NCBI GenBank assembly: GCA_951406725.2
Contig: OX597823.1
Location: 24,056,001 to 24,120,000 of the forward strand
DNA length: 64,000 bases
Source of the DNA: Octopus vulgaris
Taxonomy: Eukaryota
Direction: 5' to 3'
Shown: piece by piece, positions 4,277 through 61,709 of the stretch
Layout of the letters: every line of letters begins with the position of its first letter
Numbering within the stretch: position 1 is the first letter of the stretch
Position numbers and translations under genes: made by a program
Notes under the pieces: model-generated
Told to the model about the DNA's origin: nothing
What the model saw: the letters and a program-made list of their open reading frames with translations, nothing else
Databases searched by the model: none

Positions 4277-4447
4277 TTTTCTCAGTAATTAACTGTGGAC
4301 CTCCAAAAGAAGTTTCTGGTGCAGTGAAATCCTTCAAAACTATCACATTTAAATCTATAGTGATTTATACTTGCCCAAAGGGAGAACAACTGAGGTCAAT
4401 ATGTCAAATGAACAGCAGATGGAGTACGGTAGTGTCTAGTTGTAAAG
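4277..4447 (+). CDS. Exon A1: Sushi/CCP-like module
   Basis: tttcag|TT..TGTAAAG|gtaaca; [56 protein letters not shown] (CGPP...YTC...C...W...C). Not in the ORF track; read manually. Confidence 0.88.
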
Positions 4448-61400: not shown

Positions 61401-61709
61401 TGTATGTATATGTGTGTGTGTGTGTCAATGTATTTATATCTGTGTGAAAATTTCTTCAGTTTGTTAATATACTTTATTCTCAATTTGATATTAACACCTT
61501 GTTCTCACTCACCACTGATATTAATTTCTCAATTCCAGCATACAGAAAAATTGACTGTGGACCACCAAAAGATGTTGAGGCTGCAAAAAAGTTCTACACA
61601 TCCACCACGTATAAATCTGTAGTGACCTATAAGTGTCCATTGGGACATGTATTGAAATCAGTGTGCAAAGAGGATAATAAATGGACTTCTGTAGTGTCAA
61701 GTTGTAAAG
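4277..61709 (+). CDS. Partial multi-exon gene (12 exons, 805 codons in window) encoding a mosaic extracellular protein with (Sushi-PAN-PAN-Sushi)x3 architecture; 5' and 3' ends not seen
   Basis: Twelve ORF segments bounded by AG/GT, all phase 1-1, lengths multiples of 3 (6x171, 3x240, 234/201/234). Splicing in order gives an open frame (junction codons E,P,V,V,D,P,D,A,V,A,A). Cys patterns match CCP and PAN modules. That all belong to a single transcript is inferred. Confidence 0.82.
7407..7646 (+). CDS. Exon B1: PAN/Apple module (4-Cys)
   Basis: ctccag|AA..AACC|gtaatt; [15 protein letters not shown]...[28 protein letters not shown]...RDYYQRVN; C-x3-C-x5-C-x11-C plus C-terminal DYY strand. 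Confidence 0.9.
8400..9320 (+). mobile_element. Highly degenerate Penelope-like element (linker and GIY-YIG)
   Basis: Manual translation: FNTNV...[59 protein letters not shown]. Confidence 0.6.
9896..10134 (+). mobile_element. Young, CpG-rich tRNA-derived SINE with 13-bp target-site duplication
   Basis: TSD ggtatggtgttaa at 9883-9895 and 10135-10147; B-box gagttcaaattcc; central gtcgactttgcctttcatcctttcggggtcgataaa block; aaatagaaata tail. Confidence 0.92.
10386..12857 (+). mobile_element. 5'-truncated RTE-clade LINE (APE endonuclease C-terminus, RT, 3' UTR, (GAT)n tail), inactivated by stops
   Basis: ORFs 10833-11750 and 11763-12533: [48 protein letters not shown]; ends in gatgatgat. Confidence 0.95.
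12860..14560 (-). mobile_element. Degenerate R4/Dong-like non-LTR retrotransposon
   Basis: [14 protein letters not shown]...[17 protein letters not shown]...[23 protein letters not shown]...CRICGE...HIISEC (CCHC). Confidence 0.85.
15068..15301 (+). CDS. Exon C1: PAN/Apple module (4-Cys)
   Basis: tttcag|CC..TCAG|gtcagt; [58 protein letters not shown]...NWGTYVINS. Confidence 0.88.
15642..15710 (+). repeat. Tandem duplication of a 34-bp unit
   Basis: gaaattcatgtacatagttttcagggagattcag at 15642-15675 and 15677-15710. Confidence 0.9.
15700..15897 (-). mobile_element. tRNA-derived SINE (second family)
   Basis: Reverse strand gtggcttagtgg (A-box)...gtgagttcaattg (B-box)...aagcaaggcactttatttc. Confidence 0.65.
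18126..18296 (+). CDS. Exon A2: Sushi/CCP-like module
   Basis: ttcaag|TT..TGCAAAG|gtaatg; [59 protein letters not shown] acceptor placed by alignment to the paralogous exons. Confidence 0.82.
18590..19857 (+). mobile_element. Degenerate RTE LINE, 5' half (EN to RT up to the YLA motif)
   Basis: Aligns by eye with 10430-11720; many stops and frameshifts. Confidence 0.85.
19858..20040 (+). mobile_element. Possible hAT-like DNA transposon terminus
   Basis: Begins caggaccggattt...gggcaattgcc...gggcccc, resembling CAGGGCCGGATTT-type hAT/MITE ends; partner TIR not found. Confidence 0.4.
20200..20702 (-). mobile_element. R4/Dong-like LINE 3' end and UTR
   Basis: Reverse complement matches 24800-25240 (ccaatagagaaagagcca..., KFRLIPVII). 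Confidence 0.8.
20703..21015 (-). mobile_element. tRNA-headed SINE with (AAC/AAT)n linker and hammerhead-like 3' part
   Basis: Minus strand TGGCGTAGTGG (A-box), GAGTTCAATTCC (B-box), anticodon-like stem gggCTACTAAccc; tail gacac-CTGAAGA-a-ggctg...cagct-GAAA-tgtt-gtgtt. Confidence 0.75.
21100..21200 (+). ncRNA. Type I hammerhead ribozyme motif (apparently intact core)
   Basis: Stem I actttc(21108-13)/gaaagt(21189-94) plus actttt/aaaagt; CUGAAGA 21114-20; stem II gaagatt(21121-27)/aatcttc(21170-76); GAAA 21177-80; short stem III with palindrome ACATGT; GUC cleavage triplet 21186-88. Confidence 0.8.
21450..23091 (-). mobile_element. Penelope-like retroelement (RT and linker), very AT-rich and degenerate
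   Basis: [12 protein letters not shown]...FIQIDID...[32 protein letters not shown]. Confidence 0.85.
23092..24142 (-). mobile_element. Degenerate RTE LINE, 3' half (from AFDRVP to the GRGKPRKT end of ORF)
   Basis: LYADD remnant at about 23895-23910; [20 protein letters not shown]...WYGHVMHMD. Confidence 0.88.
24143..25240 (+). mobile_element. 5'-truncated R4/Dong-like LINE with RLE domain and 3' UTR
   Basis: ORF 24505-24930 WWNVPVKT...[10 protein letters not shown]...VVEISCPAD...EKENTY (PD..E restriction-like endonuclease). Confidence 0.85.
25380..25550 (+). CDS. Exon A3: Sushi/CCP-like module
   Basis: ttccag|TT..TGTAAAG|gtaatg; [56 protein letters not shown]. Confidence 0.88.
28618..28857 (+). 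CDS. Exon B2: PAN/Apple module
   Basis: ttctag|AT..AAAC|gtaatt; [59 protein letters not shown]...RDYYQRVK. Confidence 0.88.
30441..32110 (+). mobile_element. Probable non-autonomous Helitron/Helentron-like element
   Basis: 5' atACTAGcagagttacccggcgttacccgag; internal repeated aatttcatcaa / gatccattcagt motifs; 3' ccaaatttc...acacgaacaca...ttgatataata end. Family assigned from recalled terminal patterns only. Confidence 0.5.
32330..32645 (-). mobile_element. tRNA-derived SINE
   Basis: Reverse strand ggctgtgtggtaac...ctgggttcagtcccactg...tttgtagacagaaactgaaagaa...aataagtaccagg. Confidence 0.75.
32712..34100 (-). mobile_element. RTE LINE 3' portion with intact ORF end, full 3' UTR and (GAT)n tail
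   Basis: ORF 33163-33831 [11 protein letters not shown]...[13 protein letters not shown]...GRGRPRKTW; highly similar to 12000-12850. Confidence 0.95.
37506..37706 (+). CDS. Exon C2: shortened PAN/Apple-like module
   Basis: tttaag|CC..CCAG|gtcagt; [66 protein letters not shown]; upstream intron homologous to that of C1 and C3. Confidence 0.8.
37785..38170 (+). mobile_element. Old RTE 3' fragment
   Basis: [25 protein letters not shown]. Confidence 0.7.
38571..39453 (+). mobile_element. Internally deleted mariner-family DNA transposon with ~190-bp TIRs and TA target duplication
   Basis: TA|tgagatctgatcaataagtatccggactgttgccatag ... ctatggcaacagtctggatacttattgatcagaccaca|TA; HTH remnant [27 protein letters not shown]...[13 protein letters not shown] motif; no DDE domain. 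Confidence 0.92.
39960..40380 (-). mobile_element. RTE/RTEX-like RT fragment
   Basis: [18 protein letters not shown]...[32 protein letters not shown]. Confidence 0.85.
40382..40552. repeat. ~170-bp (TA)n microsatellite
   Basis: Direct reading. Confidence 0.97.
41238..41408 (+). CDS. Exon A4: Sushi/CCP-like module
   Basis: tttcag|AT..TGTAAAG|gtatct; [56 protein letters not shown]. Confidence 0.88.
42845..43250 (+). mobile_element. Old RTE 3' fragment
   Basis: catggctgtgactgcagagg...gaaatgaagccagcatgctc matches the RTE ORF end. Confidence 0.7.
43850..46400 (-). mobile_element. Degenerate second RTE-clade LINE (Expander/Rex3-like)
   Basis: [23 protein letters not shown] (ORF 44967-45158); [25 protein letters not shown] endonuclease remnant near 45915-45940. 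Confidence 0.6.
46834..47004 (+). CDS. Exon A5: Sushi/CCP-like module
   Basis: tttcag|CT..TGTAATG|gtaata; [56 protein letters not shown]. Confidence 0.88.
47798..50465 (-). mobile_element. Degenerate RTE LINE (EN to 3' tail)
   Basis: ORF 49076-49381 [10 protein letters not shown]...YKGKGD...DEMQFGF; (CAT)n tail at 47798. Confidence 0.9.
51306..51545 (+). CDS. Exon B3: PAN/Apple module (Lys/Arg-rich)
   Basis: atccag|TT..AAAG|gtaatt; [59 protein letters not shown]...[14 protein letters not shown]. Confidence 0.9.
51712..51906 (+). mobile_element. tRNA-derived SINE with approximate 12-bp TSD, present only in repeat unit 3
   Basis: caatattaagaa (51695-51706) and caatattaggaa (51907-51918); gagttcaaatt, gttgacttcgcctttcatcc. 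Confidence 0.82.
52055..55000 (+). mobile_element. Penelope-like element (degenerate ORF to GIY-YIG) flanked by diverged direct repeats
   Basis: SIKNIP...MRWKA N-terminus; [27 protein letters not shown]...NYIGLC...[10 protein letters not shown]...[12 protein letters not shown]; repeats at about 52055-52200 and 54770-54970. Confidence 0.8.
57750..57983 (+). CDS. Exon C3: PAN/Apple module
   Basis: ttccag|CT..GAAG|gtcagt; [58 protein letters not shown]...NWDTYIFIE. Confidence 0.88.
58930..60085 (-). mobile_element. Degenerate RTE LINE 3' portion
   Basis: (CAT)n tail at 58935; PHD-like region remnant 59890-60030; similar to 32712-34100. Confidence 0.85.
61140..61420. repeat. Compound (TACA)n/(TG)n/(TATG)n microsatellite
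   Basis: Direct reading. Confidence 0.9.
61539..61709 (+). CDS. Exon A6: Sushi/CCP-like module
   Basis: ttccag|CA..TGTAAAG|gtaatg; [56 protein letters not shown]. Confidence 0.88.

What the first reader, a model, noticed from the sequence alone, without database searches (positions are those of the whole stretch)
4277..61709. Periodic Sushi-PAN-PAN-Sushi polyprotein built from 12 one-domain, phase 1-1 exons
Seen: the exons fall in exact order A B C A A B C A A B C A, each one module, all symmetric phase 1 and all stop-free, although the surrounding introns are riddled with TEs. Known: CCP/Sushi and PAN/Apple are extracellular protein- or glycan-binding modules (complement regulators; factor XI, plasminogen, HGF N-domain), and phase 1-1 module exons underlie exon shuffling. 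Inference: this is a lineage-specific, very long secreted or surface recognition, adhesion or matrix protein. I do not recognise a characterised protein with this tetra-module period. The ORF track misses four of the six A exons (A1, A2, A3, A5), so automated annotation may be incomplete.
Basis: partly seen in the sequence, partly recalled or inferred. Interest (0 to 1): 0.8.

Follow-up and report, generated by a model that had tools for sequence, protein, structure and literature searches.

The report
Giant octopus Sushi-PAN-PAN bead-chain protein
These twelve octopus exons are a short middle piece of a much longer chain of about 190 small disulfide-type modules that gene catalogues split into several misnamed genes; it is likely one secreted protein of over 13,000 amino acids, predicted to cross-link acidic sugars in tissue or mucus.

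Summary
The 12 exons are real: AG..GT, phase 1-1, 804 codons without a stop; A = short Sushi, B and C = PAN. They match Octopus vulgaris models CAI9728791/92 at 100%. The period is not ABCA: the unit is A(1-2)-B-C, single A in 51 of 78 units. Neighbouring models of the same accession run (CAI9728790, 4470 aa; CAI9728796, 4283 aa) hold the same modules, and only the last ends in a GON domain. O. bimaculoides models are collinear but break elsewhere. With O. sinensis models placed in the gap the array is about 13,500 aa and 194 modules. No signal peptide or membrane anchor was found. Contigs of two probably-RNA runs stop where splicing predicts; the A4-A5 joint was not seen. A cuttlefish PAN-Sushi-Sushi-GON model is related. 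B modules are strongly basic and fold like the heparin-binding HGF N domain. Best reading: one giant secreted, polycationic matrix scaffold, undescribed in the papers searched; single-gene status, secretion, tissue and ligand are unproven.

The parts
4277..4447 (+). exon A1, short Sushi/CCP module (a second in-frame AG lies 9 nt further in; the public model uses the first)
   Evidence: 100% in CAI9728791
7407..7646 (+). exon B1, basic PAN module (HGF-N-like)
15068..15301 (+). exon C1, PAN/apple module
18126..18296 (+). exon A2, Sushi module
25380..25550 (+). exon A3, Sushi module
28618..28857 (+). exon B2, basic PAN module
37506..37706 (+). exon C2, shortened and diverged PAN module (11 residues shorter, 4 Cys kept); same shortened form in O. 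bimaculoides at 86%
   Evidence: low pLDDT at 735-749 and 780-807
41238..41408 (+). exon A4, Sushi module; last module of public model CAI9728791
46834..47004 (+). exon A5, Sushi module; first module of public model CAI9728792
51306..51545 (+). exon B3, basic PAN module (net +13)
   Evidence: splice to C3 inferred from run X4
57750..57983 (+). exon C3, PAN/apple module
   Evidence: an X4 contig matches 57748-57845 with 0 differences and leaves the genome at the acceptor
61539..61709 (+). exon A6, Sushi module; followed by a B module outside the window in CAI9728792
45157..45178 (+). 22-nt ATG mini-exon that the public model CAI9728792 uses as its start; encodes no signal peptide, likely a prediction artefact

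Best explanation
The twelve exons are the middle of an octopus array of Sushi(1-2)-PAN-PAN units ending in one GON domain, which is likely a single gene of about 1 Mb for a likely secreted bead-chain protein of 13,000 residues or more, predicted to cross-link sulfated or acidic glycans in extracellular matrix or mucus through its many basic PAN modules. Shown: exon anatomy, module folds, repeat grammar, conserved order in three Octopus species, a single GON end, strong positive charge of B. Inferred steps: (1) one transcript runs through the array from a 5' signal exon not yet found; (2) each module folds on its own with two internal disulfides, and B and C carry N-glycans; (3) short Sushi modules act as spacers, giving a chain a few hundred nanometres long (rough estimate from recalled module sizes); (4) some 50-60 B modules give avid binding to polyanions, as the HGF N domain binds heparin, while neutral C modules may bind glycans or proteins; (5) the GON head anchors the chain or helps its export. 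The array grew by tandem duplication of whole exon-intron blocks, first ABC, then 2- and 4-unit super-repeats.
For: One gene: four O. vulgaris models with accession numbers CAI9728790, 91, 92, 96 on a contig of the same length consist of the same modules; GON occurs only at the end of the last model, in O. vulgaris and in O. bimaculoides; 0 of 14 models checked start with a hydrophobic signal-like stretch (best N-terminal 10-mer 1.22 or less); most start at a Met inside a module; breaks differ between species, three O. bimaculoides models falling within the span of CAI9728790; the A4-A5 and A2-A3 introns hold no signal-like exon by my scan. Coding: orthologous modules A1-C2 are 83-90% identical and open in O. 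bimaculoides; dN/dS 0.5-0.6. Spliced: X4 record 24 (180 nt) matches C3 from 57748 with 0 differences and runs on for 82 letters; a B3-C3 join predicts the start at 57748 and 5.1 of 20 B3 words, and 0.25 was seen; two contigs of A4-like paralogues, in X4 and X14, end at 41412, where a splice into a B2-like exon ends, while 4 of 5 unspliced paralogues would run 38-56 nt further. Extracellular: exactly 4 Cys in 173 of 174 full modules; N-glycosylation sequons above all 200 shuffles in B (32 against max 31) and C (74 against max 60). Polyanion binding: B net charge +7.3 on average, positive in 41 of 42; best single-domain structural match of B is the HGF N domain (Z 12.0, rmsd 2.4, 78 aligned), whose basic cluster binds heparin (PMC8249616, passages read).
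Against: No N-terminal or signal exon was found, and the genome was not available, so 'secreted' rests on domain type and sequons. No read or contig was seen across A4-A5, the very place where the annotation splits; the joint table showed 15 of 215 rows and the piece table 32 of 13,420, and the B3-C3 joint itself was not among them. X4 is not on record as RNA (kind '?'). CAI9728793-95 were not retrieved; 2,643 + 387 aa of the size estimate come from O. sinensis models placed by overlap and accession order. Sequons are not enriched in A (40 against mean 36.4). A modules are basic too (+2.5), so charge may be a general trait, not a binding site. With recalled HGF cysteine numbering (C70, C74) only about 3 of 6 heparin residues fall on mostly basic B columns, which is weak in a domain this rich in Lys. 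Fold likeness shows no function. Tissue is unknown.
Confidence: 0.45

Rival explanations
1. Same giant gene, but an immune or microbial recognition protein: many diverged PAN lectin modules and complement-regulator-like Sushi modules, with a GON head, bind microbial surfaces or act as a cationic barrier in mucus or blood.
For: C modules match apple lectins (TgMIC4-A5 with lacto-N-biose Z 8.8; Sarcocystis lectin SML-2 Z 8.2); A modules match CD55 and CR1 best by sequence; neighbouring copies are only 27-64% identical with dN/dS 0.5-0.6; cationic overall (pI 8.6-9.3).
Against: No pair of copies has dN/dS above 1 (max 0.80); module order is kept between species, unlike fast-turnover immune clusters; lectin residues not tested.
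Confidence: 0.2
2. A tandem cluster of two to several separate genes, each with its own unseen signal exon, of which only the last carries GON.
For: All three annotations split the array; segments differ in their internal super-repeat and age (4-unit repeats up to 95-96% alike in CAI9728790 and 96; older 2-unit pattern in the O. sinensis segment); the A4-A5 joint was not seen.
Against: Breaks fall at different modules in different species; no model has a signal-like start or a distinct end other than GON; the start used for CAI9728792 is a 22-nt non-hydrophobic mini-exon.
Confidence: 0.2
3. A splice-variable array: because every exon is phase 1-1, cells skip or choose exons to make many shorter isoforms (Dscam-like diversity) rather than one full chain.
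For: Any exon can be skipped in frame; some models lack B or C at places where the orthologue has them.
Against: The strict alternation A-B-C (27 of 27 B-to-next steps are BC in O. bimaculoides) and super-repeats suit a continuous chain, not blocks of like exons as in mutually exclusive clusters; the two inferred joins are the adjacent ones, B-C and A-B; missing exons in models may be prediction errors.
Confidence: 0.1
4. A precursor cut into small PAN or ABC effectors (leech LAPP-like collagen or heparin binders, for saliva or venom), or a GON-dependent helper of secretion in the ER.
For: Leech anti-platelet protein is a close fold match of B (Z 9.7); the GON domain of ADAMTS9/GON-1 acts inside the ER (PMC3338439, abstract read).
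Against: Linkers are mostly 0-1 residue and only 1 RxK/RR site occurs in 10,471 aa; an ER role does not explain 190 repeated modules.
Confidence: 0.05

Closest known systems
Molluscan PAN-Sushi(n) proteins (Haliotis, Solemya and others; often named SVEP1-like or selectin-like)
   Same: PAN and Sushi in one chain (ESM Atlas cluster 'PAN/Sushi', score 0.86, a lead only)
   Different: One PAN followed by 5-9 tandem Sushi, 620-880 aa, with hydrophobic N-termini; no PAN pairs, no alternation, no GON; Sushi score 41 or less against 80-105 for octopus modules
Cuttlefish CAE1175485.1 (Sepia/Acanthosepion pharaonis, 359 aa)
   Same: C-type PAN, two short Sushi modules of the same type (33-39% over C-A-A) and a GON end 44% identical to the octopus one
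   Different: Order C-A-A-GON against B-C-GON; model starts inside the PAN, so its true length is unknown; no cuttlefish B module came up
ADAMTS9/ADAMTS20/GON-1
   Same: C-terminal GON domain (Pfam E 1.5e-32); source of the database name of CAI9728796
   Different: No metalloprotease or thrombospondin domain in the models scanned
SVEP1/polydom
   Same: Many Sushi modules, large, extracellular (recalled); source of the names of CAI9728790 and 91
   Different: No vWA, pentraxin or EGF hit; PAN pairs instead
Factor XI/prekallikrein apples, HGF N domain, apicomplexan MIC4/SML-2
   Same: PAN/apple fold (Z 8.2-12.4)
   Different: Four Cys only; pairs separated by Sushi; no protease or kringle; tens of copies instead of 1-6
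Giant modular matrix proteins: C. elegans DIG-1, Drosophila Dumpy, tenascin, hemicentin (all recalled, no call)
   Same: Design: a long chain of small modules with super-repeats and a terminal globe; the GON start resembles the collagen C-propeptide (E 3.5e-4)
   Different: Different modules; no sequence relationship tested or claimed

Membership tests
Sushi/CCP domain | Four Cys and a Trp before the last Cys, CCP beta fold | tested here: met
   4 Cys in 77 of 77 and Trp in 100% of A modules; CCP chains at Z 4-5 over about 52 residues; Pfam cut-off passed by 3 of 6 window exons, so a short, diverged form
PAN/apple domain | Four-Cys core with helix on a curved sheet | tested here: met
   PAN_1 above cut-off in 6 of 6; Z 12.0 to HGF N, 8.8 to kallikrein apple
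SVEP1/polydom | vWA, pentraxin and EGF domains beside the Sushi run (recalled) | tested here: not met
   None in Pfam scans of P0003, P0004, P0005, P0013, P0015, P0016; the unseen N-terminus could not be scanned
ADAMTS9/20/GON-1 | C-terminal GON domain | tested here: met
   PF08685 at E 6e-33 and 1.5e-32
ADAMTS9/20/GON-1 | Metalloprotease domain and TSP1 repeats | tested here: not met
   No such Pfam hit in the six array models scanned; N-terminus unseen
Factor XI/prekallikrein | Four six-Cys apples in tandem plus serine protease (recalled) | tested here: not met
   4 Cys per PAN in 96 of 97, PANs come in pairs, no trypsin hit
PAN-ZP matrix proteins (cuticlin, NompA, LET-653) | ZP domain and membrane anchor after the PAN repeats (recalled) | tested here: not met
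   C-terminus is GON; no ZP hit; best 19-residue hydropathy 1.01-1.18 in P0013/P0004
HGF-N-type heparin-binding PAN | Basic cluster at Lys58/60/62, Arg73/76 (PMC8249616) | tested here: inconclusive
   B is basic with 16 mostly Lys/Arg columns; no residue-level alignment to HGF was obtained; mapping by recalled Cys numbers matches about half
Apicomplexan apple lectins (MIC4, SML-2) | Galactose-binding pocket | not tested
   Fold likeness only
Secreted protein | N-terminal signal peptide | not testable with these tools
   5' end lies outside the window, no genome held, 0 of 14 models begin with one

The most novel reading that the evidence does not exclude
Octopuses carry one gene of about 1 Mb and 200 or more one-module exons for a 1.5-MDa secreted Sushi-PAN-PAN filament with nested super-repeats and a GON head, among the largest extracellular proteins in animals, grown from a short coleoid PAN-Sushi-GON ancestor and hidden in all three octopus annotations as SVEP1-like and ADAMTS20-like fragments; it acts as a polycationic cross-linker of sulfated glycans in a cephalopod tissue or secretion.
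Probability: 0.45. Interest if true: 0.78.

Novelty: new variant of a known kind. Interest (0 to 1): 0.62.

Why it matters
If it is one gene, it adds a giant extracellular protein of a new architecture, built from domains known from blood clotting, complement and parasite lectins, to a group whose soft-body matrix and secretions are poorly known at the protein level. It corrects 13 uninformative or misleading gene models in three octopus genomes, gives a case of a GON domain outside ADAMTS proteases at the tip of a repeat chain, and is a clean record of exon shuffling followed by nested tandem duplication, with intron flanks still alignable. The ABC unit (about 215 aa) is small enough to express, so ligand and shape are directly testable.

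Tried and rejected
Whole genome not held, so the 5' end, CAI9728793-95 and the true span could not be read. Run search with exon B3: no RNA holder listed; four holders of unknown kind, three of genome size; this blank is no evidence on expression. Read laying on 41150-58100 with 4 of the 24 listed runs: tables were swamped by a SINE at 51.7-51.9 kb; no joint row for any module exon was displayed; X5 and X17 showed no exon piece among the rows shown. GON homotrimer prediction: no verdict, score 0.00, alignment not used. AlphaFold of the 861-aa model: pTM 0.30, pLDDT 67, domain arrangement undefined; its Foldseek hits have TM 0.11 or less and were used only as domain hints. Sequence search of PDB with the three-sequence B profile gave nothing significant, and HGF was not among the hits of the larger profile. 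GON-region homologue search (586-1868 aa only) returned 9 octopus models and one gastropod EGF-GON protein, no squid orthologue. ESM Atlas hits were all under 0.9. Tree of 58 C modules is mostly unresolved (8 of 55 branches starred, bootstrap unsettled); only a two-type split including the cuttlefish C is used, loosely. Signal-exon scan gave 3 weak candidates (4127, and two at 50959) that look like intron text. Rejected: pseudogene or chance ORFs; ABCA as the unit; SVEP1 or ADAMTS20 identity; membrane anchor (the two hydrophobic stretches, in O. sinensis P0010 and P0016, are insertions between modules that resemble intron read-through). Literature: 10 searches, listings only, found no description; gene and protein ids gave 0 papers. 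Passages searched in 10.64898/2026.02.02.703354, 10.64898/2026.04.09.716377, PMC10138644, PMC13218726, PMC7693380, PMC4224354, 10.1101/2022.06.11.495763: nothing on this protein. Short peptide motifs or ids were absent from the supplements of the skin-mucus proteome PMC10138644 (file cut when stored; its main table does list 3 Sushi and 3 Apple-like proteins that I could not identify), the salivary proteome PMC7693380 and the brain atlas PMC9712504 (one file unreadable); bioRxiv supplements were not seen. Earlier-findings look-ups returned nothing.
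Full report
Observation. Each has AG..GT ends and phase 1-1; A exons are 171 nt, B 240 nt, C 234 nt (C2 201 nt); joined they give 804 codons, no stop, four Cys per exon; no thirteenth module lies in the window. Pfam calls all six B/C exons PAN_1 above cut-off and all six A exons Sushi, three above cut-off. 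Copies are 48-64% (A), 49-59% (B) and 27-49% (C) identical, with pooled dN/dS 0.51-0.58; intron flanks of like exons remain alignable (62-85% over 100 nt upstream against 55 +/- 4% for random stretches), so whole exon-intron blocks were duplicated.

What it belongs to. Profile searches returned 8 of 2006 and 12 of 2413 candidates; all named ones are Octopus. Eight window exons are 100% identical to O. vulgaris CAI9728791 and four to CAI9728792. Cluster look-ups added CAI9728790 (4470 aa) and CAI9728796 (4283 aa) on a contig of the same length. All four are strings of the same A, B and C modules (153 called, truncated ones included); the last ends in a 222-residue tail that is a GON domain. Six O. 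bimaculoides models on one contig length are collinear: P0009 follows the start of CAI9728790, P0001 its end, P0006 matches CAI9728791 (77-90%), P0004 the end of CAI9728796 with GON. O. sinensis P0010 overlaps the end of CAI9728792 at 98-100% and continues; it and P0016 carry 41 modules of which 40 have no close match (80% or less) in the four O. vulgaris models, and probably correspond to CAI9728793-95, which I did not retrieve. The sum is 13,501 aa and about 194 modules, a floor because the models truncate or skip exons; at the window's 4.8 kb per module that is about 0.9-1 Mb (extrapolated).

The repeat grammar. Between a C and the next B there is one A in 51 of 78 cases, two in 18, three in 6, none in 3, over the 13 models of three species (orthologous units counted more than once). 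The unit is therefore Sushi(1-2)-PAN-PAN, and the window reads ABC|AABC|AABC|A. Identity between C modules peaks at lag 4 in CAI9728790 (mean 0.64, max 0.95) and CAI9728796 (0.58, max 0.96) and alternates with lag 2 in the O. sinensis segment, so there are nested super-repeats. The window is an older, more diverged stretch.

One gene or several. For one gene: a single distinct C-terminus; no signal-like start in 14 of 14 models; breaks that differ by species; the start given to CAI9728792 is a 22-nt mini-exon at 45157 without hydrophobic residues, and no signal-like exon lies in the A2-A3 or A4-A5 intron by my simple scan. Against: nothing seen spans A4-A5, and the 5' end is missing. O. vulgaris and O. 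bimaculoides models both begin in the same C exon, which may mark the first module.

Transcription. No run on record as RNA holds exon B3; run X4 (kind unknown, 62 million letters, behaving like the RNA-guess runs X14 and X17 in table 1) holds 0.25 of its 20 words. One X4 contig of 180 nt matches 57748-57845 without a difference and has 82 letters left over on the upstream side. A B3-C3 splice predicts a match start at 57748 and 5.1 of 20 words; an A exon ending in the same letters would also start there, but would not explain the B3 words. Six further contigs (five X4, one X14), 85-89% like A4, lie within 41242-41412; two end at 41412, as a splice into an exon starting like B2 would, whereas 4 of 5 unspliced window paralogues would run on 38-56 nt. 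This is indirect: the joint rows were not among the 15 of 215 shown. It supports spliced B-C and A-B transcripts in two studies, at low depth; it gives no tissue.

Structure and chemistry. A C-A-B-C piece folds with pLDDT 84 and pTM 0.57. B matches the HGF N domain (Z 12.0, rmsd 2.4, 78 residues), plasminogen (Z 12.4) and leech anti-platelet protein (Z 9.7, rmsd 2.5); C matches kallikrein apples and TgMIC4 (Z 8.8); A matches CCP modules at Z 4-5. The 861-aa model has pTM 0.30, which fits beads on a string but may only reflect a shallow alignment. Of 174 full modules 173 have exactly four Cys, so the repeats offer no spare Cys for inter-chain bonds; B has mean net charge +7.3 (41 of 42 positive), A +2.5, C 0.0; sequons exceed all 200 shuffles in B (narrowly) and C but not A; there is no membrane segment at the C-terminus and one furin-type site in 10,471 aa. 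HGF binds heparin through Lys58, Lys60, Lys62, Arg73 and Arg76 (PMC8249616, passages); I could not get a residue-level alignment, and a mapping from recalled Cys numbers matches only about half of these. The start of the GON domain resembles the collagen C-propeptide (E 3.5e-4; COLFI below cut-off). In ADAMTS9/GON-1 the GON domain acts in ER-to-Golgi transport (PMC3338439, abstract).

Range. A full-library HMMER search with the A profile gave 613 proteins at E 0.001 or better; among the best 150 listed, high-scoring A modules occur only in octopus models and five short unnamed Logan fragments that read like single genomic exons, while five other proteins have one PAN before a Sushi run (named ones: Haliotis, Solemya). 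One cuttlefish model, CAE1175485.1, is C-A-A-GON, 44% identical over GON and 33-39% over C-A-A. The family end is thus shared by coleoids; the long B-containing array was seen only in Octopus, within the limits of annotated proteins.

Mechanism. Most likely (0.45) one secreted chain in which Sushi modules space out PAN pairs, the basic B modules bind sulfated or acidic glycans with high avidity, and GON forms the head: a cross-linker for matrix or mucus. Rivals: immune or barrier recognition (0.2), a cluster of genes (0.2), a splice-variable array (0.1), a cleaved precursor or ER helper (0.05). Shown are anatomy, folds, charge, conservation; inferred are single transcript, secretion, ligand and site.

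Novelty. The domains are known and giant modular matrix proteins are a known kind (DIG-1, Dumpy, tenascin; recalled). It fails the tests for SVEP1, ADAMTS20, factor XI and PAN-ZP proteins. Ten library searches and term searches in nine papers or their supplements found no description; subscription papers, bioRxiv supplements and the cut part of one proteome table were not seen. Verdict: real, undescribed architecture, new variant of a known kind; interest 0.62, rising to about 0.78 if the single 1.5-MDa chain is confirmed.

Noticed in passing
window 10374-12800 (+), 62374-64000 (+), 48200-50300 (-), 33160-34100 (-), 18670-19790, 23100-24120, 59260-60050: Family of non-LTR retrotransposon remnants in the introns; reverse transcriptase followed by a PHD-like finger inside the same frame. 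Copies at 10.4 kb and 62.4 kb are 89% alike, younger than the exon duplications.
   Followed up: partly
window 38569-39455: Mariner-type element remnant: 212-nt inverted repeats (88%) around a Mos1 HTH frame.
   Followed up: partly
window 51717-51914, also 412-863 and 9896-10065: Very abundant SINE-like repeat with by far the highest contig depth in all four runs laid.
   Followed up: no
window 53801-54636 (+) and 22454-23097 (-): Decayed frames that look like Penelope-type retroelements by eye (recalled likeness); the two ORFs tested had no Pfam hit.
   Followed up: partly
window 37506-37706: Exon C2 lacks 11 residues and its first and last strands, yet is kept at 86% in O. bimaculoides: a conserved irregular module, a possible hinge or special site.
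   Followed up: partly
window 5904-7908, 26863-29157, 50669-51656; 34538-35143 and 56230-56798: Non-coding stretches up to 1.3 kb around like exons remain 65-73% alike between units; no open conserved exon was seen in them.
   Followed up: partly
P0162 (Gigantopelta aegis XP_041348349.1): Signal-bearing EGF-repeat protein with four GON domains and no protease domain: GON is reused outside ADAMTS in other molluscs.
   Followed up: no
P0145 residues 162-217; P0004 tail: The first 55 residues of the GON domain resemble the collagen C-propeptide, and Atlas neighbours are PAN-COLFI and PAN-fibrinogen proteins (under 0.9): GON may be a distant member of that group.
   Followed up: partly
window 2283-2453 and 40382-40553: Long pure microsatellites, (TCT)57 and (TA)n of 172 nt.
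   Followed up: no
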